Source: a virus (lineage: Duplodnaviria > Heunggongvirae > Uroviricota > Caudoviricetes). From it: a stretch of 64,000 bases of DNA. This document shows, piece by piece, positions 13,643 to 41,087 of this stretch. The DNA is taken from the IMG/VR virus record IMGVR_UViG_3300033485_000006, positions 25,402 through 89,401 of that record; one strand, written 5' to 3'. Below the pieces are notes generated by a model, which was not told the origin of the DNA, ran no database searches, and was given only the letters and a program-made list of their open reading frames with translations. Positions within the stretch are counted from its first letter, which is position 1; each line of letters starts with the position of its first letter. A program made the position numbers and the translations under genes.

Positions 13643-14389
13643 TTAAGCTTTGGTTGCCCGTGGCTTATTCTTTGGTTTTTCTTTTACTGGAAGTTTTGAT
13701 TTAAGAATTGTTAATTGTTTCTCTAGGTATTCCACATGGTCAGCTAAATGTTCTGCCTCTGCTTCATCAACTAGTTTTTCTCGTTGTTCTTTCACAAGTG
13801 ACCAACGCGCCATAGTTTCATCTGCATCAAAGTATAGGTCACCACCTTTGATTACTTCTTCAATTTCATCGTTACTTAGAAAATACTTATAAGTTTCCTC
13901 AATTAATTTACGAGATTGTTTAAGAATAAACTCAACGGATGCTTTAGCTTCATGCATCTTACCACCACTACCAAAACTCACTGAATGTACCATAAACATA
14001 CTATGGTCTGTCATAATAATCTCATCACAGTTAAGAGCAATAATAGTAGCTGCACTCGCAGCTGTATCAGTAATAATTGCTGTGCATACTGCAGCTGTAC
14101 TATTAATACCAGTGATAATCATTTGAGCACCAGATAGGTAACCCCCACCATTATCAATAATAAAATTTATATTATCATTGTCAGTTAGTGCTAGTGCAAT
14201 TTCCATATACTCATGGTATTCACTAGAAGATTCAATACCTTCAGTTAAATAATAGTTTACTGTAATTGTTTCCCCAAAGATAACATATAGTCCTTTATTA
14301 TTACAACGTTCTCTTACCATAGCATCTGTATGGTAAGCCTCTAGTGTATTATTTACATCACCACCAAACATATTATCATGTTTACTCAT
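13643..14389 (-). CDS. ClpP/S14-family serine protease-like protein
   Basis: TDTAASAATIIALNCDE resembles the ClpP active-site Ser region (GxAASMG). A downstream His (MVHSV) and Gly-rich turns fit the ClpP fold. 248 aa. Confidence 0.55.
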   Translation of the reverse strand: MSKHDNMFGGDVNNTLEAYHTDAMVRERCNNKGLYVIFGETITVNYYLTEGIESSSEYHEYMEIALALTDNDNINFIIDNGGGYLSGAQMIITGINSTAAVCTAIITDTAASAATIIALNCDEIIMTDHSMFMVHSVSFGSGGKMHEAKASVEFILKQSRKLIEETYKYFLSNDEIEEVIKGGDLYFDADETMARWSLVKEQREKLVDEAEAEHLADHVEYLEKQLTILKSKLPVKEKPKNKPRATKA

Positions 14390-16782
14390 TTGTGTCCTTT
14401 TGAAAATATATTCTCTGCGAATTCTGTTAGTCTTCCTCTAACAACCTTAGTTAGTTTAGCACCAAATAATTTTACATTTGGGTATTCTTTCTTTAGCGCA
14501 CCAAGTAACACTGCAAGACTAGTAGTATACTTATTTAGGTACGCATTGTCAATCTGGCGACTAGACCCAATAGCGATTACCATACAACCCTCACCAATAC
14601 GTGTAAGTGCTGTTTGCGCTGAGCTAGGTGAGAAGTTTTGTGCCTCATCCATAATGATGATAGAGTCAGTTAACGTCCTTCCACGTAGTCCAAGAGTTGT
14701 TATTGGTTTGATATTATAGCTCTTCATGAGTTCTTCTAGTTTTTCCTCTACAGCTAACTCAAGGTCCTCTGCCTTCATCTTCTTATTACTGAGATGTTTT
14801 CTCACCATGATTCTCAGGGTATCATATAATGGTGCAAAGAATGGTGCGAACTTTTCATCAGAGTTATGCGTCACAATATAGTCATCTGTAAGATATAGGC
14901 CGTCCTGGTTGTCTAATGTAATACACTGCACCTCGTCATCACGAACATACTCTACACTTTTAATCATCCTTGGTCTACCAATGCGTGCTGCCTTGTAATT
15001 AGTAGCTTTACGTTGTAGCTTTGCTAAGTTAAAGTGTGGGGAGTCTATCTGAACAATATATTGAATATGGTTGCAGTTACATTGTATACCTAAAATCTCT
15101 GTTAAGCCGATTCTATCCCTTGTAGAAATTCTTGCAATACCGCCAATTGAGTGGACTAAGTCTTTAACATCACTGGATAATACACTAGATGAAGTGTAGA
15201 ATATTATCTCTCCTGATGGTCTAATAGAGCCATCAGAGTCTATCATACCCCTCAAAAGTTCCACTCTAGTATTCAGTGTAGCTACCTTGTAGCTTTCAGG
15301 TATAAATTTAGTTTCTGCTTTTTTATATTGAAGACCTAGCATAGTTAAGGCCTCTTTAAGCTTATTCGTGTGGCCTCTTCCATTAATACCTGATATAGTG
15401 TATAATACATTTTTATCTGAAGAACGGTTTATAGCGCACCCAATATCTTTTAAGGTACTAGCTATATTATTAATAATCTCTTCACTATCAGAATTTCCTA
15501 GAGCTAACCTGACGTGACTTCCTGATAAGCTACCATCTCCAATTAGTAATCCTAATAGGTATGGGTCAACTAAAGGCTCACTATAATCAAATTCTACTGG
15601 TAGGTTCTTCGGTAGTTTATGACGTAAAGCCCCCCATTTAGTAATAGTAGACATAATTTCTGCAGTGCTTCTAAGTTTTGTAACTTTATCTCTTGTAGTT
15701 TCCCATAAGTGGTCCTCAGAACATTCAGTTACGCCCCCATCGGTAGTAGTTACTCTATACACTTTTTTAGTGCCTTGTGGTGTTACATGCTTTACTGTTG
15801 AGTATTCCCCAGTATTAGTTATAACTAAGTCCCCAACAGCAATATCACCCATCACTACCCAACCAGTAGGTGTAAGTATCTTGGCAGTTAAAGGCTGTGG
15901 CCCAGGTAAAAAACCAACCTCTTCATTACGTTCTAAGTTATGAACAGTATTCCTAAGATAATATATACCAGAATACTTCTTAGCCCTTACAAGCTTCATA
16001 GCAGAAGATATAGCAGCAAAGGATTTACCTGAACCAGCCAAGGCATCACAAATAATAAAGTCATAATTCTGTGATAGTATAGCTGCTGAGTACACAAGTT
16101 GTTCTAGGTTCCGTGGGCTTGCCTCTTGCTTTCTTACTTCATCCTCATCAATAGACTCAAGTTTCCCATTGTTAACCAAGAATACCGATTGGTTACCATC
16201 AGTTGATGTGATATGGTATGCATAGTTTTCTTGCGTATGAGTTGGGTTAATACTAATAACTTCCTTAAGCTCCAACTCTTGAAACACTTCTGGGTCAACT
16301 GTTAGGTACACTAATGGTTCTATATTAATGTCCTCTTGCTCCCTAACAAAGTCTACCTTAATACCCCGAGTTAATGCAAGAAATCTACAGTTAGTATCAT
16401 TGCTAATAAATGTAACATCCATAGAGCTATTATGGATATCCTCGGCTATCTCAATAATTTTTAAGTCATTCTTCTCATCTTTATATTCTTTCTTAGAGAC
16501 TAACATAAGAGTTACTTCAAACTCGCCTGTATCATACTTAGCATGAATAGTGGTTCTATCTTCCTGTCTATCAACACTTACTAAACGTGCATCTGATAGC
16601 ATACCAGAGGTTCTCCTAGCATGAAAACCTATCTCTTCCATTAATGTTTTCTTAGAATCAAGTTCTTGTATAACAGTATCTGGAATAACTATTACCTTAC
16701 TACCAGAATTACTAAGTGTATATAGGTTAGTTGAATCTAATAGTAGTATATTTGTGTCCAACACTAGGTATTCATTTTGCAT
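14386..16782 (-). CDS. phoH: PIN-PhoH (YlaK-like) ATPase interrupted by an intein
   Basis: N-terminal PIN (LVLDTNILL), Walker A (DALAGSGKS) and PhoH motif GFLPG. An insert of about 340 aa carries two LAGLIDADG motifs and ends ...VTHN|S. The extein then resumes with DEKFAPFFAPLYD and Walker B (IIIMDEAQNF). Confidence 0.8.
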   Translation of the reverse strand: MQNEYLVLDTNILLLDSTNLYTLSNSGSKVIVIPDTVIQELDSKKTLMEEIGFHARRTSGMLSDARLVSVDRQEDRTTIHAKYDTGEFEVTLMLVSKKEYKDEKNDLKIIEIAEDIHNSSMDVTFISNDTNCRFLALTRGIKVDFVREQEDINIEPLVYLTVDPEVFQELELKEVISINPTHTQENYAYHITSTDGNQSVFLVNNGKLESIDEDEVRKQEASPRNLEQLVYSAAILSQNYDFIICDALAGSGKSFAAISSAMKLVRAKKYSGIYYLRNTVHNLERNEEVGFLPGPQPLTAKILTPTGWVVMGDIAVGDLVITNTGEYSTVKHVTPQGTKKVYRVTTTDGGVTECSEDHLWETTRDKVTKLRSTAEIMSTITKWGALRHKLPKNLPVEFDYSEPLVDPYLLGLLIGDGSLSGSHVRLALGNSDSEEIINNIASTLKDIGCAINRSSDKNVLYTISGINGRGHTNKLKEALTMLGLQYKKAETKFIPESYKVATLNTRVELLRGMIDSDGSIRPSGEIIFYTSSSVLSSDVKDLVHSIGGIARISTRDRIGLTEILGIQCNCNHIQYIVQIDSPHFNLAKLQRKATNYKAARIGRPRMIKSVEYVRDDEVQCITLDNQDGLYLTDDYIVTHNSDEKFAPFFAPLYDTLRIMVRKHLSNKKMKAEDLELAVEEKLEELMKSYNIKPITTLGLRGRTLTDSIIIMDEAQNFSPSSAQTALTRIGEGCMVIAIGSSRQIDNAYLNKYTTSLAVLLGALKKEYPNVKLFGAKLTKVVRGRLTEFAENIFSKGHK
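14863..15885 (-). mobile_element. intein with LAGLIDADG homing endonuclease domain inside the PhoH-like gene
   Basis: Hint N-block-like ILTPTGWVVMGDIAVGDLV. LAGLIDADG motifs LLGLLIGDGSL and LLRGMIDSDGSI about 100 aa apart. C-terminal splice block IVTHN followed by Ser. The upstream boundary is uncertain by a few codons. Confidence 0.7.
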
Positions 16783-19948: not shown

Positions 19949-20261
19949 TATGCTCCTTGGTAATTAGACTATATAATTTATCCACAGTGTCAATTTGTAT
20001 ATTATCTACAGTTAGCCCAGTAGTACCCATGTTATTATCAAAGACATACCAAGCAATCCAACTATCACCACCCATATGTTTATCAAGGGTATCAACTAAG
20101 TTATCTAATAGAAGACATAATCCTTGGAAATCCTCAAGTAGAAACTCATAGTGTACTTGTTCTGTTGAGATACGGTTTGAGGTATTATCAATGATTAACA
20201 TTAAGTCTTTAAATAATTCTTTATTCATTATGCACCTCCAAATAACAGGAAGCCTTCCCAT
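19935..20261 (-). CDS. hypothetical protein (108 aa)
   Basis: ORF in the operon. No motif. Confidence 0.35.
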   Translation of the reverse strand: MGRLPVIWRCIMNKELFKDLMLIIDNTSNRISTEQVHYEFLLEDFQGLCLLLDNLVDTLDKHMGGDSWIAWYVFDNNMGTTGLTVDNIQIDTVDKLYSLITKEHNATY

Positions 20262-20410
20262 AATACAAAGGCAAGTGACACAAATATCCCTACAATCTTT
20301 GCACTAATAGTTGGCTTAGTAATAAACTTTTCTGGATTAGTTAGTTGTATAAGCGTCAGTATAATTGAGATAACCCCAAGAATAAATAAGGTTGTTACTA
20401 ATGTTACCAT
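20228..20410 (-). CDS. small membrane protein (60 aa)
   Basis: Two hydrophobic helices. Confidence 0.35.
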   Translation of the reverse strand: MVTLVTTLFILGVISIILTLIQLTNPEKFITKPTISAKIVGIFVSLAFVLWEGFLLFGGA

Positions 20411-20411
20411 A

Positions 20412-20618
20412 TTAAACCTTTAACCCAAGAATTTGTGCTACCATACCAAGATAAATAGTATTCATAGTAATATATTTAGGTTTCTCAACTTTACCAGTTT
20501 TAATCAGCTTTGTATATTCCCCATTAGGGACAACTACGTAGTATGGCGGGTAAGTGTGTGGTTGCTTAGCAACTGCCTGTCGTGCTCGTTTTGCTTCTAG
20601 TGAATTCTTTTTACTCAT
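20412..20618 (-). CDS. hypothetical basic small protein (68 aa)
   Basis: ORF with an RBS-like upstream sequence. Confidence 0.35.
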   Translation of the reverse strand: MSKKNSLEAKRARQAVAKQPHTYPPYYVVVPNGEYTKLIKTGKVEKPKYITMNTIYLGMVAQILGLKV

Positions 20619-20653
20619 ATTATTTCCTTAAATGTATTTTATAATAGTCTAGG

Positions 20654-20818
20654 TTAAATCCCTAGACCAACTCGTAGTGCAATTTGTTCGATTGCAAGAT
20701 ACCATGAGTATACTGGAATTAAAATTGCTAGTGCCATCATCCAGAAGCCTTTAGCTATAACCATACCGTATACCCATAACATAACTAGGAGTGTTCCTCC
20801 TGTATTAACTTTACCCAT
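20654..20818 (-). CDS. small membrane protein (54 aa)
   Basis: Manually translated: MGKVNTGGTLLVMLWVYGMVIAKGFWMMALAILIPVYSWYLAIEQIALRVGLGI. Its ATG overlaps the stop of the upstream gene (AATGGGTAA). Confidence 0.3.
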   Translation of the reverse strand: MGKVNTGGTLLVMLWVYGMVIAKGFWMMALAILIPVYSWYLAIEQIALRVGLGI

Positions 20819-21314
20819 TTAACACCTCCCAGTCATTAGCAAGAATATCTGCCTGTGATGCCAACCAACCTGGTTGCATTGTTTTACCAGTAGTAAACAT
20901 ATCTATATGTGCATCAATAGTAACTACTTCTTGGGTACCAGATAAAGCTTTAGCATAACAAGAACCAGCGTATGGTTTTATATCTGGAGTTTCACCTTGT
21001 AAAACGAGCCACATACCTTTACCATTCCAACCACTACGAGCAACCTTATAACCTAATTTAAGATATTCAATAGCACCACCAAATGATAAATTGCCAGATA
21101 ATTTATAAGCATTTTCAAACTGTTCTTTAGGTGACCAAGAAACATATCCTTTAAATTCTTCTGTGTTTGGTTTCCCACCATCTACATACTCTACTAAGTA
21201 GCCTTCATCAGTACCATCCTCATCATCTGGTAGTTTCCAACCACGAAACTCATTATACTCTAAACGATTCATCGTTTTTGCATTAATAATCTTTATTCCA
21301 ATATACTGCTTCAT
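20811..21314 (-). CDS. DUF2829-domain protein (Tad2-like, candidate anti-Thoeris signal sponge)
   Basis: AIEYLKLGYKVARSGWNGKGMWLVLQ and the C-terminal ...SQADILANDWEVL match the DUF2829 consensus (ALKxGKKVxRxGWNGKGMxI ... DxLAEDWEIV). There is an N-terminal extension of about 65 aa. Confidence 0.55.
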   Translation of the reverse strand: MKQYIGIKIINAKTMNRLEYNEFRGWKLPDDEDGTDEGYLVEYVDGGKPNTEEFKGYVSWSPKEQFENAYKLSGNLSFGGAIEYLKLGYKVARSGWNGKGMWLVLQGETPDIKPYAGSCYAKALSGTQEVVTIDAHIDMFTTGKTMQPGWLASQADILANDWEVLNG

Positions 21315-21889
21315 AAAATTTCCTTTAATTTTTCTTTAAGTTCATCTTCTGTACCATTATTACTAATAATATGGTCGAAGTTGCAATCATCTAGTTCAAC
21401 CTCTGAACTGTGACTATCAAATAGATTAGTATTATCTCGTGTGATGCGCACAGTCTTAATATTATAATCTGGGAAATGGTCTTGAATTGCATCTAACTCT
21501 AATGTAAATCGCCAGTCAGTAATAACAACAGTATCTGTTGAGATTAACATATGGTTAATGAACTTAGCGGCTACATCAACCCATACAGTATCACCAAAGA
21601 TTGGTTTCATACCCTCTGTACCAAAGTTCTGTAGAATCTCACGGTATGTTTGCATACGAAAACTAGTATCATTCTGGTCTTCTGGTGGTATACCATGAAC
21701 TAGAACATAACCACTGTTCTTCCAACCCTCTAGTTCCTGCATATCAATACCGAAAGTTGCAGCTATAATTTGTTTGAGCGGACCAGCAAACGCAATGAGT
21801 TTAACTGTTGGGTCAATTTGTTTTAGGAGTTTAGCACTGGTGTCTTTACCAGCCCTGGCCTTCCCCGATAGTAAAATTATTTGTTTCAT
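21311..21889 (-). CDS. deoxynucleoside monophosphate kinase (T4 gp1-like)
   Basis: N-terminus MKQIILLSGKARAGKDT resembles the T4 dNMP kinase P-loop (LSGVKRSGKDT). Confidence 0.65.
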   Translation of the reverse strand: MKQIILLSGKARAGKDTSAKLLKQIDPTVKLIAFAGPLKQIIAATFGIDMQELEGWKNSGYVLVHGIPPEDQNDTSFRMQTYREILQNFGTEGMKPIFGDTVWVDVAAKFINHMLISTDTVVITDWRFTLELDAIQDHFPDYNIKTVRITRDNTNLFDSHSSEVELDDCNFDHIISNNGTEDELKEKLKEIL

Positions 21890-23969: not shown

Positions 23970-25055
23970 TTAATCTTTTTTCTTCAAGAGATATTCATTT
24001 GAAATACACTTGAAACTCAGACCTGGAATTGTAGTTGACTTATAAACTCTACCCTCAGATACTGTACCTTTATTCATTGATGGTCCTGTAACTCTCTCTT
24101 GGAGTTCTTGGAGATTAGTACATACTTCGAATACTTTACATGAGGCACTAACAACTGGCACATGTTTAATATCGCATTTTGCAAAACTAAAATATTCCTC
24201 GAAGAATTCAGTGCGCTCTACTGGTAGTAGATATTTGCCATTAGTAATATCATAAATATCAAATACGTAGAAGTCTAACTCTTGAACTTTCTCATGGTTG
24301 GCTTGAATTCTAGGTCCAATTACCTCACCTTGAACAGCATATCCAACTGGTAGGTACTCAGCAAGTTTATACTTATTAGTCATCTTCCAGAAGTCGGAAT
24401 CATTTGGTCTTAACTCTAAGTTTCTAGAACATACTCCAAGTTTCACAGCCTCTTGTTTAAATCCTAAGGATTCTTTAATACGCTGCCATAGATTTAACTT
24501 CTGATGAATTTTAAATACAGTCATACTAGAACCATCAAGTTTCAATGTTTCTTCCCATTGATGGTCTTTGTATCGCTCATAGTAACTAGTTAAGTTTTGA
24601 ATTCGCTCTTGGTCTGTCTTAGGTAGAAAACTTGGGAATCTATCTTGAGTACTTCCAGGAGATTGCTTGGTGGATCCACCTGTAGTTTGCTCAGGTTCGT
24701 ACTTAACTACTTTAAGTATATCTGTAACATCATCTCCGAGTTTAAACCCCTGGTGAATCTCTGGGAAACTACTAAGTGGTAAGGCCAACCCTTGGCTGAT
24801 AACTTTACGCAACTTCATAGTCTTTAGGCGGTGTCTGTCATCTATAAGATACTTCTTTGGTGTACCAAGAAATGAATATCTAGGCTCATCTGGTAGCATG
24901 GAGTCAATCTCAAAGAATACACATGAGTCACCAAAATTAAACTCACCTTTCTTAACCACAACTTGCCAGTCGTCAACTAAGGCAATCTCAATAAAATCTG
25001 CACCATCAATTGGTAATAGTGCACCAATACACCTAATTGTTACTAATTTTCGCAT
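23970..25055 (-). CDS. ATP-dependent RNA ligase (Rnl1-like)
   Basis: Nucleotidyltransferase motif I KLDGSS (T4 Rnl1 has KEDGSL), a downstream EG/QGEVIG motif IV-like, and a size of 361 aa similar to T4 Rnl1. Confidence 0.5.
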   Translation of the reverse strand: MRKLVTIRCIGALLPIDGADFIEIALVDDWQVVVKKGEFNFGDSCVFFEIDSMLPDEPRYSFLGTPKKYLIDDRHRLKTMKLRKVISQGLALPLSSFPEIHQGFKLGDDVTDILKVVKYEPEQTTGGSTKQSPGSTQDRFPSFLPKTDQERIQNLTSYYERYKDHQWEETLKLDGSSMTVFKIHQKLNLWQRIKESLGFKQEAVKLGVCSRNLELRPNDSDFWKMTNKYKLAEYLPVGYAVQGEVIGPRIQANHEKVQELDFYVFDIYDITNGKYLLPVERTEFFEEYFSFAKCDIKHVPVVSASCKVFEVCTNLQELQERVTGPSMNKGTVSEGRVYKSTTIPGLSFKCISNEYLLKKKD

Positions 25056-25357
25056 TCTGCGATCTCCTTAATGTAAATATTGTAGTAATCATAGTCATAT
25101 CCTCTATCCTCAGGCATCCCTAATGTGTCTTCAAATTCTTTTAATCTATCGTAAAATTCATCCTCATCTTTATAAACTTCATATAAGGAATCATATTCAT
25201 TATCCAATAGTTCTTTTAACTTATCATACTTAACTTTCTGTTCCAGTAGTTCACTTACAACAGTCCCAGCTTCTTCCTTAGTTTTACAGTAACCAACATA
25301 ATTAGTCCAACCTGATTCATAACTAAACCCGTATTCTTCAATTACTAGATAAATCAT
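25043..25357 (-). CDS. acidic hypothetical protein (104 aa)
   Basis: Highly acidic, Tyr/Glu-rich. Confidence 0.35.
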   Translation of the reverse strand: MIYLVIEEYGFSYESGWTNYVGYCKTKEEAGTVVSELLEQKVKYDKLKELLDNEYDSLYEVYKDEDEFYDRLKEFEDTLGMPEDRGYDYDYYNIYIKEIAECEN

Positions 25358-26185
25358 TTAATTCCCAATCTCAAAATATTTAATAGTTTTACTCTTCGAC
25401 TCACTTGGATAACCAAGAGGGTTAGCTAATAGGTTAACCCCAATAAAATCAAAGTCTTCTACTACGTGTGTATGACCATAAATCCATGTCTTAAGTCTAG
25501 AGTCATTAGCGATATTCTCCTCAAAGTCGAATGAATAGAACGCATTAGTCATATCATTTTGATACATTGGAGAAAAGAATTTATTGTCTACTACAGGCTT
25601 CATATGAGTTACCATAATATCACAAGAATCCTTTAGAAGTTTAAGTTTATCCTTCTCTTGCTTTGCATATTCCCAAAAGTCGTCCATCTTCATGTACTTT
25701 GAGTCATTCATAGTACGCTTCCAATATCCTTGCAGTCCTCCATCAGACTGGTAATAACCAGAAGCCATCCTGTAATAAATAGTACCATCGTAGAAACTAT
25801 TTGCTCCACCTATAGTTAAACCATTTGGTAGCGCATACTTAGTCCCATCAAGTACTTTAACCCAATTCTCTAGGAATAAGTCTTGCTGATAAGCAATCTT
25901 ATGTAAACCAGTTGGGAACATACTGCGTTGCTTATCATTTACTAGGTATCCTTCATGATTTCCTAGTACTATAAATATGTCTTTAATATTATATTTACCC
26001 CTGATAATATCCATAAATTCCATGGACTGCTCTGGGTAGTGCCCAAGATCCCCAGCTATAATTAGGTACTCAGAATCCATACTATCAAAGTATTTACTAA
26101 AAGCTTTATCAAAAAGTAGTTTTGAGCACTGAGCATCTCTCATATAAAAATCTATATGTAAATCTGAAGTGTACGCTATCTTCAT
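25358..26185 (-). CDS. calcineurin-like metallophosphoesterase
   Basis: Motifs SDLHID, IIAGDLGH, LGNHEG and GHTHV. Adjacent to the RNA ligase. Confidence 0.65.
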   Translation of the reverse strand: MKIAYTSDLHIDFYMRDAQCSKLLFDKAFSKYFDSMDSEYLIIAGDLGHYPEQSMEFMDIIRGKYNIKDIFIVLGNHEGYLVNDKQRSMFPTGLHKIAYQQDLFLENWVKVLDGTKYALPNGLTIGGANSFYDGTIYYRMASGYYQSDGGLQGYWKRTMNDSKYMKMDDFWEYAKQEKDKLKLLKDSCDIMVTHMKPVVDNKFFSPMYQNDMTNAFYSFDFEENIANDSRLKTWIYGHTHVVEDFDFIGVNLLANPLGYPSESKSKTIKYFEIGN

Positions 26186-26655: not shown

Positions 26656-29208
26656 TTATACCGAAAGTTCACTTAAGACTTCCTTAATATAATCATCTGA
26701 ACACCAATTTGGTAATGTTACACAATGTGCCCAATCTTTTCCGATATCTAACTCGGCACCAATTTTAACATTTGACTTAAGCTTCTCATCCTCTTGCCAT
26801 TCCATACATTCAATTAGGTGTTTATTCACCCAAGCAACTGTATCAACATCATCTTTAATTAGCATGTACACAGCATCATGAATGGTATTGATTAGTTTAA
26901 CTTTACCTGTCATACCATGGGACTCGATACGTTCTTGAAACTCAATGAAGGCTCTATTCATAAGTGTACCGTAAGATTGAGTAGCGGCATTACTAGCACT
27001 TCTAGACTCACCAGACTGAATACCACCATCCCTAGAGTTAATTCGTGGTGTCTTTAAGGTAAGACCAAAAGCTAACTCAATATAGCCATTGGCTTTAGCA
27101 AATTGCTCATTTCTTTTGGCGAAGTCCCCAAGACCAGAGTAGAGTTTATGATACGCATTGAAAATGTTCTGAGCTTTATCCATAGTACACTTAAGCATCT
27201 TTTGCAACTTAGGCGCAGCACAACCGTATTGCATAGCAAAAGATGGACCTTTACTCATACCACGAATATCTGGTGCTTCATCCTTAATCCGATTAATTGA
27301 TTCTGGATTAGTCATATCAATAAATATTCCACGTTCCTCAAGTTCTTCAGGGAAGAATGCCGCACCACGCATTGAGTGACCATCTACACCATCAGTAAAC
27401 TCCATAGTCTTATTCTTATCACCACTTAGGATGGCTCCTATTTTATCCTCTAGTGAGCTAAAGTCAGCATAGGCAAACAACCAACCATCTGGAGCAACAA
27501 AACAATTCTTAATAGTCTTACCATAAGAAGAACCGCTTGGGAGATTCTGTAGATTAGGCTCAGATGAACTAAGACGTGCAGACTGTGTACCACCTAATCG
27601 TAGATTACCATGTAATGTATAGTTACCATCAGCATCAGTTAAGGATAATTCTTGGAAAGATGAGATAAATGTATTCTGAATAATAGCTGTCTCAGAGATT
27701 GCCTTCAATGCTTTAAGTGTATCAAGTCTTGGGTCATCCTCAGGACATGAGGAGATAAACTCTGCAATACTCGCCCTATCTGTCTTAGCCGCACCAGTCT
27801 CAGTAAACTCAACTGGCTCAAATTCCATAACATCAAAGAGTAGTACTCTGAGTTGTACTGCTGAATTAGCATTGAATTCAACATCAAATTCCCATGCCTC
27901 TTTATTACCAACGTGAGTTGCATTATACTTAACCATTGCTAAGTATCGTAGGTTCTCCTCAGAATCTCTAACATACGTAGAATCCTTAAGAATAGCTTTA
28001 GCTTTCTCTAACTCACCAGTGATTGTCTCTGAAGCCTCAGCAACTCTATCCATATCTATTGGTAGACCATTAATCATCATATGTAATAATGGTTTAAGAC
28101 TAGGTCGCATAATCTCAGTGTAACCTCTAGATGTTTCTTGATGTTTATATAAGTTGTAAACATAGAATGTGCCACAACAGTCTTTGGCGTTATAGATAGC
28201 TAAGTTATCAAGTGGGACTACTTTACAATCTTTAACATCCTCAGCGTAATTCCCAAGATGGTCTTTAGATAGTGTCTTAAGACCTATTGATGGTCGCTCA
28301 GTACTATTTAACTCACAGTAGGCAAGTAGCATAGTATCATGTATGTTATCAATGTTTAATGCTTCAAGACCATCATAGATACCCTGTGTATCATTAAAGC
28401 CAGACATAAACCAGTTGAATACGATATGTTTTACATCAAATAAAGCATTATGAAATAGTAACTTACCCTTATAATTCCTAAAGAATTCCTTAAGTATACT
28501 AATCGTCTCCTCTGTATCCATAGTTAAACACCAATGGTCATGACAAGGAATAGTTACAGCATTATACTCATCCCAAGCAAATGCTATCGTTAATATTTCG
28601 GCCTCACCAAGTCGTAGACCCGTAGTTTCAATATCGCAGGTAATTATTGGATGTTCTAGTAACTTAGCAAGTATTAGTTTAAGTCTATCAGTAGAAGTCA
28701 CAAGTTCGTATGATTCAAACTCAAACTCTTTCTTTGCTGAATAAGTACCAGCAATAAGATGCCCGAATGTATCGAGTGATTTTGTAAGTAGTCCTTTCTT
28801 ATTTGGTTGCGCAGAGATTACTGCTGGATTAATACATGGGCATATCTTAATATGCTCATAGCCACCAATATTACAGCTTAGTACATTACCAATCTCATCT
28901 TCGAATCCTTTAGTGCCACTAAGATATTTGAAGTAATCCGCAGATACTACTAACAACTTATCAATTCCCATTGTATCACAAGCTTCAAGTATCTCTTCAC
29001 AGTGGTTTACGAGTTGTTTCTTAGGCAACTTTTTACCATCTGCTAATTCCATTGTGGAAATACCAAGCATGCGCCGAGCGATATCTGTGTCATATTTCTT
29101 TAGTGGGATACCAAAATTCTTCCCTATAAAATCAGTCCAAGCGTAATATTTATTACCTACTATAAGACCAATTGACTTATCACCTTTAGCATATTCAAAG
29201 CTTAACAT
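26656..29208 (-). CDS. DNA polymerase I family (family A) with 3'-5' exonuclease domain and an N-terminal extra domain
   Basis: Exo I (ITCDIETTGL), exo motifs (YNAKDC), Pol motif B (KxxxFAMQYG) and motif C (IHDAVYM). The first approximately 150 aa are unassigned. Confidence 0.8.
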   Translation of the reverse strand: MLSFEYAKGDKSIGLIVGNKYYAWTDFIGKNFGIPLKKYDTDIARRMLGISTMELADGKKLPKKQLVNHCEEILEACDTMGIDKLLVVSADYFKYLSGTKGFEDEIGNVLSCNIGGYEHIKICPCINPAVISAQPNKKGLLTKSLDTFGHLIAGTYSAKKEFEFESYELVTSTDRLKLILAKLLEHPIITCDIETTGLRLGEAEILTIAFAWDEYNAVTIPCHDHWCLTMDTEETISILKEFFRNYKGKLLFHNALFDVKHIVFNWFMSGFNDTQGIYDGLEALNIDNIHDTMLLAYCELNSTERPSIGLKTLSKDHLGNYAEDVKDCKVVPLDNLAIYNAKDCCGTFYVYNLYKHQETSRGYTEIMRPSLKPLLHMMINGLPIDMDRVAEASETITGELEKAKAILKDSTYVRDSEENLRYLAMVKYNATHVGNKEAWEFDVEFNANSAVQLRVLLFDVMEFEPVEFTETGAAKTDRASIAEFISSCPEDDPRLDTLKALKAISETAIIQNTFISSFQELSLTDADGNYTLHGNLRLGGTQSARLSSSEPNLQNLPSGSSYGKTIKNCFVAPDGWLFAYADFSSLEDKIGAILSGDKNKTMEFTDGVDGHSMRGAAFFPEELEERGIFIDMTNPESINRIKDEAPDIRGMSKGPSFAMQYGCAAPKLQKMLKCTMDKAQNIFNAYHKLYSGLGDFAKRNEQFAKANGYIELAFGLTLKTPRINSRDGGIQSGESRSASNAATQSYGTLMNRAFIEFQERIESHGMTGKVKLINTIHDAVYMLIKDDVDTVAWVNKHLIECMEWQEDEKLKSNVKIGAELDIGKDWAHCVTLPNWCSDDYIKEVLSELSV

Positions 29209-30626: not shown

Positions 30627-31808
30627 TTAAGCTTCATTTATTAGCTCCTTTAGTAGATTTAATTTTTCTCTATAAACTTTTTGTTTGATTTGCTCAGTAG
30701 TTAATCCTGAACAATCAGTTTTGTGTTTTGTGATAGTATACCACATATTTCTAATATCTAACTGAGAATACACAAAAGGTTTCTTAATACCGTAACGACC
30801 AAGCATATCCGCATAGACTGCTTCTAATACATAACTAAGGAATTTACCATCACGAATACCGAGTAGTAACTTAAGAAATTTCTTAGAGCCTGTGTGACCA
30901 TCTATGACATTCTGCCAACGGTGATGATTTAGGGCTACATACTCAGCAACTTTAAATTCTTCTGATGAGAAACCGTAAGTAGTCCTCATGGTTTCAAATG
31001 CTGGTTTAACCCATTGTTCATCTGAGTGACCATGAAATGTACCAATAGTTTGCTTACATGGTACTTTACCAATATCATGAAATAGTGCTGCAATCTTAGC
31101 AACCTGAGTTTCGCATTGGTCAACTACAAGCATAGTATGGTTAAATACTGAACCTTCCATGTGATATGGGTTGTCATGTTCCATAGATTTCATCTTATAA
31201 ATCTCTGGGAAGAAATCATTAAGAACATTGAGTTCATCCAAGGCTCTAAAGAATACTGAGGGTTTGTCAGATGCTAATACCTTAACCAACTCTTTGTAGA
31301 CTCTTTCTTTTGGCATCGAAGTATATAATAACTTCATATCATTAGCGTATTCTTTAAGTTCATTACTAATAACCCAATGTCCACCAAGTGTACACTTAAG
31401 GCGAGCGGCCCTTAGTACTCTAAGTGGGTCTTCTTTAAATGCTTCTGACACTGGTCTAAGTACTCCTTCAGCCAAATCTTTACATCCACCATAAGGGTCT
31501 ATAAGATTGTCTTCTAAATCCATGGCTATCGCATTGATAGTTAAATCCCTACGCAATAGGTCTTGCTCTAGAGTCACATCATTAGTACCAACTACAAACT
31601 TATCTCCTGATAACCTTTCTTGCCTAGCTAGAGCGTACTCATCGCTAGACTCAGGGTGTAGAAATACTGGGAAATCTCTACCAACCTGAGTGTATCCTAG
31701 TGACAGCATTTCTTCTACTGAAGAACCAACTACAACATAGTCTAGGTCACTAGGAGTTTTGCCTAGGAGCTTATCTCGGATGGCCCCACCAACCCTATAT
31801 ACTTCCAT
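30627..31808 (-). CDS. tRNA nucleotidyltransferase (CCA-adding enzyme) with HD domain
   Basis: Pol-beta-type head motif GGAIRDKLLGKTPSDLDYVV, RDLTINA, and the HD motif FHDIGK. Confidence 0.75.
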   Translation of the reverse strand: MEVYRVGGAIRDKLLGKTPSDLDYVVVGSSVEEMLSLGYTQVGRDFPVFLHPESSDEYALARQERLSGDKFVVGTNDVTLEQDLLRRDLTINAIAMDLEDNLIDPYGGCKDLAEGVLRPVSEAFKEDPLRVLRAARLKCTLGGHWVISNELKEYANDMKLLYTSMPKERVYKELVKVLASDKPSVFFRALDELNVLNDFFPEIYKMKSMEHDNPYHMEGSVFNHTMLVVDQCETQVAKIAALFHDIGKVPCKQTIGTFHGHSDEQWVKPAFETMRTTYGFSSEEFKVAEYVALNHHRWQNVIDGHTGSKKFLKLLLGIRDGKFLSYVLEAVYADMLGRYGIKKPFVYSQLDIRNMWYTITKHKTDCSGLTTEQIKQKVYREKLNLLKELINEA

Positions 31809-32773
31809 AATATCTCCTCAAATTTCTCAGAGTTTCTTTTAACTTTCTTAAGGTAATTTCCGTCTGTCTTCTCCAATGCTGATACACTATCATATAATTC
31901 TTCAAGTTGTTTAAATGCGAATTCAGGTTTCCAGTGTTGCAATCTAATTGATAGTAGTCTTTCAGAAGTTTCTAGTGGAAAACTAATAGTACCATGTGTC
32001 ATTAACTCTTGACATTCATCAAGTACCCTGAATGCATGATACATCGACTTCCAATCTACTAGATTATTTTCCATAGAAGCCTTGGCACGAGTACCGTATT
32101 TGCTTTCCATCTCAATGAGTTTTTCCATAAACTCCGATAGGCGGATATTAGTAATAAATCTTTTATCTAACACTTGGTAATAATCTGTAGTATCATCACT
32201 AACTACTTTAAGGTTTTGGGATACTGGCAATTGGGTGATAACATCCTTAAGCTTATCATTAGTAATCATTAATCCTTGTACTAATGATTTAACTGAAAGA
32301 ATATCGTGTAACTTGTCACCCTTAACACTATACATCTTGACTTGCCCAAGAGCATAACCAAAAAATGAACGAAGCGACTCTGGATAGAAGCACTCACGGT
32401 TGTTGTAGATTTCCTTGAACAACTCATGACATCCTATTTGACAGTGTGAACCATAGGCAAACAAAGTGTCGAATGCATTAGTATCCCCTACTTGTAATAA
32501 CTTAATGAACTTATGCACTGACCATAGGGTAAAATCTTCATCATCACTTGAATTCTTAGAATCTTTACCATTTGAATTGCTAGTCCATTGGTCAATATCC
32601 TTCTTTAATACCAAGTCCTTCAACGATGGTAGAAAGATGCCTCTATAGTCTTTATCAGAGGTTGGTAACTGTGTACCATACAACGTACTTCCTGATATAT
32701 GTAGGAAGATTACTGTATATTCTGGATATAACTCTTTAAACTTTTCTAGTTGTTTCATCTGCTTCCTTATCAT
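31763..32773 (-). CDS. predicted nucleotidyltransferase (Pol-beta superfamily)
   Basis: N-terminal GSTLYGTQLPTSDKDYRGIF matches the GSxxYGxxxxxSDxDxxGV nucleotidyltransferase fold motif. Confidence 0.4.
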   Translation of the reverse strand: MIRKQMKQLEKFKELYPEYTVIFLHISGSTLYGTQLPTSDKDYRGIFLPSLKDLVLKKDIDQWTSNSNGKDSKNSSDDEDFTLWSVHKFIKLLQVGDTNAFDTLFAYGSHCQIGCHELFKEIYNNRECFYPESLRSFFGYALGQVKMYSVKGDKLHDILSVKSLVQGLMITNDKLKDVITQLPVSQNLKVVSDDTTDYYQVLDKRFITNIRLSEFMEKLIEMESKYGTRAKASMENNLVDWKSMYHAFRVLDECQELMTHGTISFPLETSERLLSIRLQHWKPEFAFKQLEELYDSVSALEKTDGNYLKKVKRNSEKFEEILWKYIGLVGPSEISS

Positions 32774-36119: not shown

Positions 36120-36204
36120 TGGCGGATAGTATAGGATTCGAACCTATAAGAGTGTTACCTCGACAGATTAGCAATCTGCTCACTTACCATTAGTGTAACT
36201 ATCC
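36120..36204 (-). tRNA. tRNA-Ser (anticodon GCU), type II with long variable arm
   Basis: The minus strand reads GGATAGT TA CAC-TAATGGTAA-GTG A GCAGA-TTGCTAA-TCTGT ... ATAGG-TTCGAAT-CCTAT ACTATCC G CCA. It has a 7-bp acceptor, a 3-bp D stem and an encoded CCA. Confidence 0.75.
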
Positions 36205-39080: not shown

Positions 39081-41087
39081 TTACTTCCATTTAATCTCCT
39101 TTAGTTCTGTTTTAATCAAAGCATTCGCTATTTTTAGGTAGTCATCCCAATCATTATATCTGTAGTACACTGAATTCAGTGGTTTGAATACACTATGTAA
39201 TTCAATGAGTCGATTTGGTACTTTCAATTCTTTAACTTTTACTTTACATCCAAGTTTCTCAAGATGCTGTTTTAAGTGTCTATTATGATATGTCTTATTG
39301 GCTTGTGCACTAACGTCTTTAGCTAATTGAAAGTACTCCACGAGATATTTTGGGCATTTTGAATCTTTAATAACAGTCTCACTGATAGAGACCGTGTTAC
39401 ATGGCTCCATAACTTCTAGCTCTTTTATATTTAGACTATCGAGATAGGTGTAAATATCAATAGTATTTACTAAATGCTTTTTATGGGTCACTGGTATTAC
39501 TACAAAGTATAAATCATCCTTAGGTTTTACAATTCTTAGTACCTCTTTAACAACCTCCAATGGGTTCAAGGTAGAGGTCTCATTAGAGTACTTAACATCA
39601 GTTAACCCATTTAACTTAACAGGGATTCCAATAGTCTTGCTCTTATTTTTATCCGATACTTCCACTTGATTATGATATGTAGGATATACTGAACCATCCT
39701 TAGTGACTTTAAAACCAGTTGCACTATATCTTTCATGTGTTGCAACTACACCTTTAGGTAACTTCTGCTTTTTACCAAATAATTTCTCATGCTTCTCAGA
39801 GGCTAATGAGTAGGGAACACCAAGTTTATCCGCAAATTCCTTAAGATAAGCTAAAGTTTGTTCTTTATCACCAATATGACCATCATTTACTATAATAATA
39901 CTATTCTCAGTGAGTGCCACCTCACGAGCTTTTGGCATACTATCAGAAATAATAACACCATATTTATTTAGACTAGATGGTGTTATCTGTGTATTTCCAC
40001 TAAATCTATTTTGATATCCTTTAAGCATAAACTTTACATCATCACAACGTATATTCATGTTATATGATATATTATCACTTAAATGCTTACTACCAAGGAT
40101 GCTGCGGATACTATACGGTAATGCTGAAAGGCTGGTAGATAGTGTGCATAAATCATTTTCATACTTCTTAATAATAACATTAATTTGGGCTAGTAGTTCG
40201 ACCTCAATAGCTTTATCAATAGCTTTAAGTTTATTTAGAGTAGCCTCAGTATAACTTAAAGCCTCTCTAGAAGCCGCAAATTGTATACTACCTGTTGGTA
40301 CTTCAATCTCAAACCCAGAGTTCCTAATGGTGCGTAACTCATTAGCGATACTGCCATCAAGTGGGTATGCAACATTTGCCATAATTATTACACCATTTGT
40401 GCCACTTTCAGTTAACCTCCAAGCACAATGCTCATTATTTCCCTCGAATAATGGTACGGTATTTTGTATATTAAGCTCTTGATTTATCTCTGGTTTTACT
40501 TTGAAGTGTCGATATAATTTTTCAGCTGATGAGATGAATTTTTGTATATCGTTAATTTGTACTGGGACAGACACTGATACACCATTTGGTTCTTCTGTAG
40601 AAAAACTTCCAAGTTCTGCGATACTAGGGATGCCGTTATCAGCGAATACTGAGTAGACATTACTTGTACCTTCAAAGTACGATGTAACAGTAAAAGCAGA
40701 ACCAGCGGTATAGGCAAAAGGTGACTTCGAACCCACCCCTAGGGCCCCATTGAGAGCGTTACTATTTCGTTTACTGGAAGCACCCATAGTTCCGTAGAGT
40801 TCAAATACGGTATCATTACTCATACCAGTACCGTAGTCACGAATGGTTAGGAATGGTTCAAGTCGAGTTGGTAAATGAACATCAAATGGTTTATCTGGAT
40901 TACCGTTTACAATCTGGGCATCCAAGGCATTAGTTGATAGTTCTCTAAGTACAGCCATTGGTTTATCAGAATATAGTCGAGAAGACAACAATTCGAACAT
41001 CGTAGAGTTTGCCTCGATCTTTACTGTATGAACATTCTGAGCGTTAGTCTGTGCTTGACCATTTATATTTTCTAGAATCATTTCCAA
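39081..41087 (-). CDS. rIIA: rIIA-like protein (GHKL ATPase N-domain)
   Basis: The N-terminus (SSRLYSDKPMAVLRELSTNALDA ... IRDYGTGMS) parallels T4 rIIA (ANRLYSDPIGSIVRELTSNCVDA) and carries GHKL/HATPase motifs. 668 aa. Confidence 0.75.
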   Translation of the reverse strand: MEMILENINGQAQTNAQNVHTVKIEANSTMFELLSSRLYSDKPMAVLRELSTNALDAQIVNGNPDKPFDVHLPTRLEPFLTIRDYGTGMSNDTVFELYGTMGASSKRNSNALNGALGVGSKSPFAYTAGSAFTVTSYFEGTSNVYSVFADNGIPSIAELGSFSTEEPNGVSVSVPVQINDIQKFISSAEKLYRHFKVKPEINQELNIQNTVPLFEGNNEHCAWRLTESGTNGVIIMANVAYPLDGSIANELRTIRNSGFEIEVPTGSIQFAASREALSYTEATLNKLKAIDKAIEVELLAQINVIIKKYENDLCTLSTSLSALPYSIRSILGSKHLSDNISYNMNIRCDDVKFMLKGYQNRFSGNTQITPSSLNKYGVIISDSMPKAREVALTENSIIIVNDGHIGDKEQTLAYLKEFADKLGVPYSLASEKHEKLFGKKQKLPKGVVATHERYSATGFKVTKDGSVYPTYHNQVEVSDKNKSKTIGIPVKLNGLTDVKYSNETSTLNPLEVVKEVLRIVKPKDDLYFVVIPVTHKKHLVNTIDIYTYLDSLNIKELEVMEPCNTVSISETVIKDSKCPKYLVEYFQLAKDVSAQANKTYHNRHLKQHLEKLGCKVKVKELKVPNRLIELHSVFKPLNSVYYRYNDWDDYLKIANALIKTELKEIKWK

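What the first reader, a model, noticed from the sequence alone, without database searches (positions are those of the whole stretch)
20811..21314. DUF2829 (Tad2-like) protein: candidate anti-Thoeris signalling-molecule sponge
The C-terminal about 100 aa (AIEYLKLGYKVARSGWNGKGMWLVLQ ... ADILANDWEVL) fits the DUF2829 signature. Tad2 from this family is known to sequester the gcADPR immune signal of the Thoeris defence system. An unusual N-terminal extension of about 65 aa is present. The gene sits in the nucleotide-metabolism operon.
Basis: partly seen in the sequence, partly recalled or inferred. Interest (0 to 1): 0.6.

Follow-up and report, generated by a model that had tools for sequence, protein, structure and literature searches.

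The report
Two-domain Tad2-family phage immune-signal sponge
This phage gene encodes an ordinary member of the known Tad2 family, which soaks up the bacterial Thoeris alarm molecule, and its N-terminal "extension" is a widespread, unnamed domain of unknown function that phages attach to many different signal sponges.

Summary
The ORF is real: window 20811-21314, minus strand, 167 aa. Residues 77-165 match Pfam PF11195 (Tad2-like/DUF2829) at 79.9 bits against a cutoff of 25. A confident AlphaFold model (pLDDT 94) superposes on every solved Tad2.

Nine of the 12 gcADPR-contact positions of HgmTad2 are identical, including W96, N97, G98, W150, S153 and D156. The adenine-contacting Thr is Ala155. 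The cyclic-dinucleotide site of HgmTad2 and most of the tracrRNA groove of AcrIIA7 are not conserved.

The N-terminal extension (aa 1-74) is not unusual. The full two-domain form is phrog_872 and occurs in at least 89 sequenced phages. The module alone matches more than 1,400 protein clusters and has no Pfam family and no significant PDB relative.

It is homologous to the N-terminal domain of RyR-Tad (Pectobacterium phage CB1 gp68). That domain forms a domain-swapped dimer and showed no anti-type I Thoeris activity alone.

The module is fused, in varying orders, to Tad2, Sequestin, Acb4, Acb2/Tad1-hairpin and RyR sponge domains, and it also stands alone. Its function is the only open question here.

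The parts
20811..21314 (-). Complete CDS, 167 aa plus stop: two-domain X-Tad2 protein (phrog_872 architecture)
   Evidence: The ORF is listed. phrog_872 matches the full length at E = 6.4e-55. 4,689 database homologues have E <= 1e-5, and an identical protein occurs on metagenome contigs of up to 89 kb.
21093..21314 (-). N-terminal module 'X' (aa 1-74): beta-alpha-beta-beta-alpha domain homologous to the N-terminal domain of RyR-Tad. It has no Pfam family.
20814..21092 (-). C-terminal Tad2-like (DUF2829, PF11195) domain, aa 75-167
   Evidence: The Pfam hit is. PDB sequence hits are HgmTad2 at 1.1e-12, SptTad2 at 5.7e-12 and SPO1 Tad2 at 1.8e-10.
21021..21029 (-). W96-N97-G98 loop (beta1-beta2), equivalent to SPO1 Tad2 W25/N26 and HgmTad2 W21/N22/G23, which bind the diphosphate and ribose of gcADPR
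   Evidence: The stretch translates to WNG. The mapping is and the residue roles. W and N are invariant in 117 of 117 homologues, and G is kept in 115.
20847..20867 (-). W150-L-A-S153-Q-A155-D156 motif, equivalent to HgmTad2 W87-L-A-S90-Q-T92-D93. It forms the second half of the gcADPR pocket, with a T-to-A change at the adenine contact.
   Evidence: The stretch translates to WLASQAD. W150, Q154 and D156 are invariant. Position 155 is T in 74, A in 27 and S in 14 of 117 homologues.
21321..21325 (-). Likely ribosome-binding site AAGGA, 6 nt upstream of the ATG and inside the 3' end of the dNMP-kinase gene
   Evidence: Read from the upstream sequence printed and from the sequence. It was not tested statistically.

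Best explanation
The gene encodes a phage counter-defence 'sponge' of the Tad2 family. Shown here: the C-terminal 90 residues have the Tad2 sequence signature, the Tad2 fold and an almost intact gcADPR pocket. Inferred from the solved Tad2 structures: four copies assemble through helix alpha1 and strand beta2 into a tetramer. Each of its two inter-protomer pockets, built from the W96-N97-G98 loop and the W150/S153/D156 motif, encloses one molecule of a TIR-made ADP-ribose-derived alarm signal. The most likely ligand is 1''-3' gcADPR (3'cADPR) of type I Thoeris. Sequestering the signal keeps the ThsA effector off, so the infected cell does not deplete NAD+ and abort the infection. The protein is predicted not to bind cyclic dinucleotides as HgmTad2 does, because the beta2-beta5 insertion is short (26 aa) and the contact residues are changed. 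The N-terminal 74 residues are a separate domain, homologous to the N-terminal domain of RyR-Tad. By inference from that crystal structure it forms a domain-swapped dimer. It most likely acts as an oligomerisation or stabilising accessory that phages attach to many sponge domains, not as the ligand-binding part. Its translationally coupled position among dNMP kinase, MazG-like, ThyX and RNR genes suggests co-expression with the early/middle nucleotide-metabolism genes, before or as TIR signalling would start.
For: The Pfam PF11195 hit scores 79.9 bits, E = 2e-22. PDB sequence hits are only Tad2-family proteins. The AF2 model has pLDDT 94.2 and pTM 0.82, and its top 24 Foldseek hits are all Tad2 structures. 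Nine of 12 gcADPR-contact positions are identical. These include four of the five residues of the HgmTad2 W21A/N22A and S90A/T92A/D93A mutants that markedly reduced binding, and the SPO1 contacts W25, N26, W73 and D79. W96, N97, W150, Q154 and D156 are invariant in 117 homologues. N-terminal additions do not prevent Tad2 function or tetramer formation: an Acb4-Tad2 fusion inhibits both Thoeris and CBASS, and pdAcrIIA7 with a 48-aa N-terminal head is still a tetramer. The N-module is homologous to RyR-Tad gp68_N, which is a domain-swapped dimerisation element and inactive alone against type I Thoeris. In N4-like phage IME11 the full-length homologue lies in the published anti-signalling hotspot, two genes from an Acb4-family gene. 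The Kapi1 homologue is the most highly expressed prophage gene.
Against: No experiment has been done on this protein, and I found none on any X-Tad2 protein in the literature I could read. The adenine-contacting Thr (SPO1 T78, HgmTad2 T92) is Ala155 here. This variant marks a sub-clade in which other pocket-lining residues co-vary (D134, T145, Q147), so the specificity may differ. Tad2 homologues bind at least five classes of signal. The oligomeric state could not be modelled with these tools. The host is unknown, so whether it carries Thoeris is unknown. One of five homologues tested in the original study did not inhibit Thoeris.
Confidence: 0.72

Rival explanations
1. The protein is a Tad2-family sponge, but its ligand is not type I Thoeris gcADPR. 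The Tad2 domain would be tuned to another signal, such as His-ADPR (type II Thoeris), N7-cADPR (type IV Thoeris) or cUMP/cCMP (Pycsar).
For: Tad2 homologues inhibit CBASS, Pycsar and three Thoeris types, and many inhibit more than one. All solved Tad2 proteins whose alignment I could see (HgmTad2, pdAcrIIA7, SptTad2, SPO1 Tad2) have Thr at the adenine contact, whereas this protein has Ala155. Ala155 co-varies with D134, T145 and Q147 in a sub-clade of 27 of 117 homologues.
Against: The residues that hold the diphosphate and the ribose-ribose linkage are all conserved. In SPO1 Tad2 the adenine makes very few contacts, so loss of one hydrogen bond may be tolerated. One study estimated that only about 1% of Tad2 proteins are non-functional in gcADPR binding. 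The co-variation may simply reflect shared ancestry.
Confidence: 0.2
2. The protein is a bifunctional anti-defence protein. The N-terminal module would itself be an independent ligand-binding or anti-defence domain, for a signal or target not yet tested, so the protein would be a two-sponge fusion like Acb4-Tad2 or Acb4-Sequestin.
For: The module is fused, in several orders, to Tad2, Sequestin, Acb4, Acb2/Tad1-hairpin and RyR sponge domains. It also exists as a stand-alone 65-94 aa protein. Fusion to known sponges is the logic that led to the discovery of Sequestin, but that screen used Pfam annotations, and this module has no Pfam family. About 18 positions are invariant in the 40-sequence N-module alignment, many of them aromatic or charged: K8, R17, Y20, R24, W26, E42, Y57, W60 and Y70. 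That is more than a simple dimer interface would seem to need.
Against: gp68_N of RyR-Tad had no apparent activity against type I Thoeris, and the paper describes gcADPR only in the C-terminal domain of the crystal structure. The module is acidic (pI 4.73), whereas known sponge pockets are positively charged. The RyR-Tad version lacks R17, R24, W26 and the DGGxxN loop, so it may not represent this sub-family in either direction.
Confidence: 0.2
3. The protein is an anti-CRISPR of the AcrIIA7 type. The DUF2829 tetramer would bind tracrRNA in a basic groove and prevent assembly of the Cas9 ribonucleoprotein.
For: The best PDB sequence match is AcrIIA7/HgmTad2. Several GenBank records annotate full-length homologues as 'anti-CRISPR protein'. 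A 2026 paper reports tracrRNA binding by headless AcrIIA7.
Against: That activity needs the absence of any N-terminal domain: full-length pdAcrIIA7 with its 48-aa head neither binds RNA nor inhibits Cas9. This protein carries a 74-aa N-terminal domain. Only 3 of the 5 groove residues are basic here, and K66, whose mutation abolished binding, is Ser94. The protein is acidic, with pI 4.85 overall and 5.12 for the Tad2 domain. An independent group could not reproduce Acr activity for HgmTad2 either in vitro or in vivo.
Confidence: 0.03
4. The protein has a housekeeping role in phage nucleotide metabolism. It would bind a nucleotide metabolite or regulate neighbouring enzymes, not counter host immunity.
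For: The gene is translationally coupled to dNMP kinase and embedded among MazG-like, ThyX and RNR genes. A 72%-identical homologue also sits beside RNR and a MazG-like dGTP diphosphohydrolase. One module-bearing protein has a MazG-like partner.
Against: Other close homologues sit in quite different places: a lambdoid nin-like region after RusA, the N4-like anti-signalling hotspot and a highly expressed prophage moron position. That pattern is typical of an accessory gene. The papers I read describe the DUF2829 family only as immune-signal sponges or as an anti-CRISPR, never in a metabolic role.
Confidence: 0.04

Closest known systems
SPO1 Tad2 (gp34.65; PDB 8SME/8SMF/8SMG), the founding Thoeris anti-defence 2 sponge
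   Same: Same Pfam family, with the same fold (Foldseek E about 1e-6, target-normalised TM 0.72-0.83). The pocket residues correspond: W25/N26 to W96/N97, W73 to W150, S76 to S153 and D79 to D156. Both have a short beta2-beta5 insertion, 24 aa against 26 aa.
   Different: Identity over the domain is only 30-36%. SPO1 Tad2 is a single 89-aa domain, whereas this protein has an extra 74-aa N-terminal domain. The adenine-contacting T78 is Ala155 here.
HgmTad2 = meAcrIIA7 (PDB 8KBI-8KBM), and pdAcrIIA7 (9KZR)
   Same: This is the best sequence match in the PDB (E = 1.1e-12). Nine of the 12 gcADPR contacts are identical.
   Different: HgmTad2 has a 41-aa insertion that forms a second pocket for cGG and 3'3'-cGAMP. 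Here the insertion is 26 aa, and R31, S47, F70 and N85 are Q, P, I and P. The tracrRNA groove is only 3/5 conserved and the protein is acidic. The 48-aa helical 'head' of pdAcrIIA7 was not aligned to the N-module in the phmmer match to 9kzr.
RyR-Tad (gp68 of Pectobacterium phage vB_PatP_CB1, bioRxiv 10.64898/2026.06.04.730250)
   Same: Its N-terminal domain (aa 1-65) is homologous to aa 1-69 here (hhalign probability 96.1%, E = 3.2e-9). Both proteins place this domain in front of a gcADPR-type sponge domain.
   Different: The C-terminal sponge is an all-helical RyR Repeat12-like domain, not Tad2. The gp68 version of the module is shorter and lacks the DGGxxN loop and the R17, R24 and W26 equivalents.
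Multi-sponge fusion proteins: Acb4-Tad2 (Pasteurella phage Pm86), Tad2-Sequestin, Acb4-Sequestin (Pseudomonas phage Ab09 gp59)
   Same: They share the modular 'beads on a string' build of small phage counter-defence domains. The N-module occurs inside exactly these combinations, for example Acb4-X-Sequestin, X-Sequestin-Tad2 and X-Acb4.
   Different: In those proteins every domain is a proven sponge. Here the partner of Tad2 has no demonstrated ligand.
phrog_872 / uncharacterised X-Tad2 proteins of cultured phages (Kapi1_043, IME10, IME11_19, PhAPEC5, Vibrio crassostreae phages)
   Same: They have the same full-length architecture at 41-55% identity over at least 95% of the length.
   Different: There is no functional difference as far as the data go. 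All are untested, and they are annotated variously as hypothetical, DUF2829 or 'anti-CRISPR'.

Membership tests
Tad2 / PF11195 (DUF2829) sponge family | Significant full-length match to the PF11195 profile | tested here: met
   79.9 bits against a cutoff of 25, E = 2e-22, profile positions 2-73 of 73.
Tad2 / PF11195 (DUF2829) sponge family | [quoted passage not shown] | tested here: met
   The AF2 model has pLDDT 94.2, with H78-86 followed by strands and H154-158. The top 24 Foldseek PDB hits are all Tad2 chains, with E from 2.4e-8 to 3.6e-5.
Tad2 / PF11195 (DUF2829) sponge family | gcADPR pocket residues: the W-N(-G) loop and the W..S.(T)D motif | tested here: met
   W96, N97, G98, W150, S153 and D156 are conserved. 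One contact, the Thr equivalent to T78/T92, is Ala155. Nine of 12 HgmTad2 contact positions are identical.
Tad2 / PF11195 (DUF2829) sponge family | Homotetramer with ligand pockets at protomer interfaces | not testable with these tools
   Only single-chain prediction was available. The literature shows that N-terminal additions are compatible with tetramers.
Tad2 / PF11195 (DUF2829) sponge family | Binds and sequesters a TIR-derived signal and inhibits Thoeris in vivo | not testable with these tools
   This needs biochemistry and phage assays.
CDN-binding Tad2 subgroup (HgmTad2, SptTad2) | Long (35-41 aa) insertion between beta2 and beta5 | tested here: not met
   The insertion is 26 aa here, with a family median of 24.
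CDN-binding Tad2 subgroup (HgmTad2, SptTad2) | cGG/cGAMP contact residues R31, S47, F70 and N85 | tested here: not met
   They map to Q106, P114, I133 and P148. Only 1 of 9 site positions is identical. The alignment inside the insertion is less certain.
AcrIIA7-type tracrRNA-binding anti-CRISPR | Headless core with an exposed basic groove (K58, K66, K71, K93, R101) | tested here: not met
   The protein carries a 74-aa N-terminal domain. The groove residues map to K86, S94, K99, K113 and C119. The pI is 4.85.
RyR-Tad N-terminal domain-like module | Sequence homology to gp68 aa 1-65 | tested here: met
   BLASTP gives 38% identity, E = 8e-5. hhalign gives probability 96.1%, E = 3.2e-9.
RyR-Tad N-terminal domain-like module | Domain-swapped dimer, with beta1 inserted into the partner's sheet | not testable with these tools
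   In the monomer model aa 1-9 have no assigned secondary structure and three strands are present. This is compatible with a swapped beta1 but is not evidence for it.
Lockin / TadIV-1 / Sequestin / Acb4 (other small sponges), considered for the N-module | Sequence, profile or distribution match | tested here: not met
   Lockin is reported absent from INPHARED, whereas the module is in 133 INPHARED records. TadIV-1 is restricted to Straboviridae. PF21825 and PF13876 hits lie outside the module in the fusion proteins. A profile search found no PDB sequence match.

The most novel reading that the evidence does not exclude
The unnamed N-terminal module (aa 1-74) would not be a passive dimerisation handle. 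It would be a counter-defence domain in its own right: a new sponge or inhibitor for an immune signal or target that nobody has assayed. Pfam-based fusion screens would have missed it because it has no Pfam family. It matches more than 1,400 protein clusters (50% identity level), stands alone in some phages, and is fused to at least five different proven sponge families.
Probability: 0.2. Interest if true: 0.7.

Novelty: new member of a known kind. Interest (0 to 1): 0.38.

Why it matters
For this window, the result gives a confident functional label to one gene of an otherwise unclassified, uncultured phage whose DNA polymerase is only 36% identical to N4-like phages. It also suggests that the phage's unknown host uses TIR-based signalling immunity. 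More generally, the census of the N-terminal module is a usable lead. A small, highly conserved domain with no Pfam family accompanies Tad2, Sequestin, Acb4, Acb2/Tad1-hairpin and RyR sponges. Working out whether it only dimerises them or adds a function of its own would clarify how phages build multi-sponge proteins. The many unassigned partners of the module could also be mined for further anti-defence domains.

Tried and rejected
- **Near-identical DNA:** megablast of the 4.8-kb neighbourhood against 50,697 phage records found nothing, so the phage is not in the collection.
- **NCBIfam:** no hit for this protein or its small neighbours.
- **AFDB50:** the library was unavailable. BFVD returned only uncharacterised phage proteins.
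- **N-module as Lockin, TadIV-1, Sequestin or Acb4:** considered and rejected.
- **Cyclic-dinucleotide binding and AcrIIA7-type RNA binding:** considered and rejected.
- **Tested Tad2 homologues:** I tried to see whether any experimentally tested Tad2 homologue is of the X-Tad2 type, but no supplementary tables are held and the main texts do not say.
- **ModTad2 alignment:** I tried to obtain the ModTad2 (His-ADPR binder) alignment at position 155, but it ranked below the five alignments printed.
- **Other sponge domains in the window:** local HMMs for the module, Tad2, Sequestin and Acb4, plus a RyR query, found only this gene.

Full report
**The observation.** Window 20811-21314 holds a 167-aa ATG-initiated ORF on the minus strand.
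- Its start codon overlaps the stop of the upstream dNMP-kinase gene (21311-21889) by 4 nt. Its end overlaps the next small ORF (20654-20818) by 8 nt. An AAGGA lies 6 nt upstream of the ATG.
- GC (0.359) and GC3 (0.208) are the same as in the neighbours.
- An identical protein is present on independent metagenome contigs, and 4,689 database proteins match at E <= 1e-5. It is a real gene.

**The C-terminal domain.**
- Residues 77-165 match PF11195 (Tad2-like, formerly DUF2829) over the whole profile at 79.9 bits, against a gathering score of 25, with E = 2e-22.
- The significant PDB sequence relatives are all Tad2-family proteins: HgmTad2/AcrIIA7 (1.1e-12), pdAcrIIA7, SptTad2, SPO1 Tad2 (1.8e-10) and ModTad2.
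- An AlphaFold2 model built on 117 homologues is very confident (pLDDT 94.2, pTM 0.82). Its top 24 Foldseek hits in the PDB are all Tad2 chains, with E from 2.4e-8 to 3.6e-5 and target-normalised TM-scores of 0.67-0.89. Nothing else reaches significance.

**The ligand pocket.**
- Published structures define the gcADPR contacts. In SPO1 Tad2 they are W25, N26, W73, T78 and D79, with I63, T65, D67, H71 and S76 in supporting roles. In HgmTad2 they are W21, N22, G23, M76, A78, T82, V84, W87, L88, S90, T92 and D93. The W21A/N22A and S90A/T92A/D93A mutants markedly reduced binding.
- Using the HMMER alignment, these map to W96, N97, G98, M139, T141, T145, Q147, W150, L151, S153, A155 and D156. Nine of the 12 are identical (motif coordinates checked).
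- In 117 homologues W96, N97, W150, Q154 and D156 are invariant. Position 155 is T in 74, A in 27 and S in 14.
- The Ala155 variant marks a sub-clade in which D134, T145 and Q147 co-vary. This could mean a shifted specificity, or just shared ancestry.

**Activities that can be set aside.**
- HgmTad2's second pocket, for cGG and 3'3'-cGAMP, needs a 35-41 aa beta2-beta5 insertion and residues R31, S47, F70 and N85. Here the insertion is 26 aa and those residues are Q106, P114, I133 and P148.
- The tracrRNA-hijacking activity reported for AcrIIA7 works only without an N-terminal domain and depends on K58, K66, K71, K93 and R101. Here there is a 74-aa N-terminal domain, the equivalents are K86, S94, K99, K113 and C119, and the protein is acidic at pI 4.85. 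Another group could not reproduce Acr activity for HgmTad2.

**The N-terminal 'extension' is common.**
- phrog_872 covers the whole protein at E = 6.4e-55. Full-length homologues occur in at least 89 sequenced phages. They include lambdoid and P22-like phages (IME10, Kapi1), N4-like phages (IME11, PhAPEC5) and Vibrio phages.
- An exhaustive HMMER search with aa 1-72 alone found 1,432 cluster representatives at E <= 1e-3 and 801 at E <= 1e-10. The module sits at the N-terminus, in the middle or at the C-terminus of proteins of 76-354 aa. It occurs in 133 INPHARED records.
- Modelled alone it is a confident beta-alpha-beta-beta-alpha domain (pLDDT 94.6).

**What the module is fused to.**
- Among the top 150 representatives, Pfam finds Tad2-like in 56, PF21825 in 37, PF13876 in 16 and the Acb2/Tad1 hairpin in 2. 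These domains lie outside the module itself.
- PF13876 is the Acb4 cGAMP sponge. PF21825 is Sequestin, a 3'cADPR sponge that was itself discovered because Pfam showed it fused to Tad2 and Acb4.
- A local census with custom HMMs gave X-Tad2 (37), X-unassigned partner (31), X-Sequestin (20), X alone (12), Acb4-X-Sequestin (5), X-Acb4 (3), X-RyR (1) and other combinations.
- The unassigned partners are mostly singletons. They include divergent or frameshifted Tad2, Acb2-like helices and one MazG-like domain.
- Rhodoferax phage P26218 gp06 is an X-Acb4 fusion in a cultured phage.

**What the module is.**
- A 2026 preprint describes RyR-Tad, gp68 of Pectobacterium phage CB1. [quoted passage not shown] The N-terminal fragment (aa 1-86) had no apparent activity against type I Thoeris. 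In the crystal it forms a domain-swapped dimer, with beta1 inserted into the other protomer.
- I fetched gp68. Its aa 4-63 align to aa 1-67 of the window protein at 38% identity, E = 8e-5. A profile comparison gives probability 96.1% and E = 3.2e-9. The module is therefore the same domain family, in a longer sub-type that has an extra DGGxxN loop and invariant R17, R24 and W26.
- The most economical reading is an oligomerisation or stabilising accessory for sponge assemblies. This is compatible with dimeric Sequestin and RyR and with tetrameric Tad2 and Acb4.
- Two facts keep a role of its own open, at about 20%: the module also stands alone, and it is unusually strongly conserved. Against that, gp68_N was inactive on the one system tested, and the module is acidic, whereas known sponge pockets are basic.

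**Genomic context.**
- The window is the replication and nucleotide-metabolism region of an uncultured tailed phage, 35.5% GC, with almost all genes on the minus strand. It encodes DNA polymerase (36% identical to N4-like LUZ7), helicase, primase, SbcCD, rIIA, RNR, ThyX, dNMP kinase, a MazG-like protein and a sigma-like factor.
- No other sponge domain was found in the window.
- The nucleotide-metabolism neighbourhood recurs in a 72%-identical homologue, next to RNR and a MazG-like gene. Other homologues sit after RusA in a lambdoid nin-like region, in the N4-like anti-signalling hotspot beside an Acb4-family gene, or as the most highly expressed Kapi1 prophage gene. This mobility is typical of accessory counter-defence genes.

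**Verdict.**
The gene is a new, ordinary member of the large Tad2 sponge family (2,783 non-redundant homologues in one survey).
- It most likely sequesters 3'cADPR-type signals. One pocket substitution leaves the exact ligand open.
- The 'unusual' extension is a common, unnamed, sponge-associated domain already seen, but not explained, in RyR-Tad. It is the only part of the finding that offers something new to test.

Noticed in passing
window 14386-16782 (-): This 798-aa ORF combines a PIN_4 domain (aa 6-143) with a PhoH ATPase that is split into two stretches. The roughly 350-aa interruption carries a LAGLIDADG_3 motif (aa 507-555) and hits many unrelated PHROGs (terminase, primase, helicase). 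It is probably an intein with a homing endonuclease inside PhoH.
   Followed up: partly
window 23970-26185 and 30627-32773 (-): An RNA-repair-style gene set lies just upstream of the nucleotide-metabolism genes. It comprises an RNA ligase with a PHA02142 OB domain, a calcineurin-like metallophosphatase, a PolyA_pol/CCA-adding-like enzyme and an RlaP nucleotidyltransferase. It may be a second counter-defence function, against anticodon nucleases.
   Followed up: no
window 20228-20818 (-): Three tiny ORFs of 54, 68 and 60 aa lie directly downstream of the Tad2-like gene. The 54-aa and 60-aa ones are rich in hydrophobic residues and look like membrane proteins. The 54-aa one matches phrog_16613, of unknown function, and overlaps the Tad2-like stop by 8 nt. 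The same set follows the gene on independent contigs L001 and L002.
   Followed up: no
alignment A1, positions 134/145/147/155 of the window protein: Within the X-Tad2 family, the Ala155 variant (27 of 117 sequences) goes with D134, T145 and Q147. Thr155 proteins mostly have L/N134, E/Q145 and L/Q147. This may be a specificity sub-clade.
   Followed up: partly
proteins P0121-P0270 (module-bearing representatives): 31 of 150 module-bearing proteins have a partner of at least 45 aa that matched none of the Tad2, Sequestin, Acb4 or RyR models. Most are singletons, one cluster has six members, and one partner (P0167) is MazG-like. They could be mined for new anti-defence domains.
   Followed up: partly
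window 36120-36204 (-) and 39081-41087 (-): A tRNA-Ser(GCT) gene and an rIIA-like gene that starts with TTG. The DNA polymerase at 26656-29208 is only 36% identical to its nearest cultured relatives, N4-like Pseudomonas phages, so the phage is unclassified.
   Followed up: no
GenBank records PQ850616, PQ850609, PQ310662, PP889499 (hits H1, H5, H34, H25): Full-length X-Tad2 homologues are annotated 'anti-CRISPR protein' in several recent phage records. The residue mapping and the requirement for a headless protein suggest this label is probably wrong for the two-domain form.
   Followed up: partly
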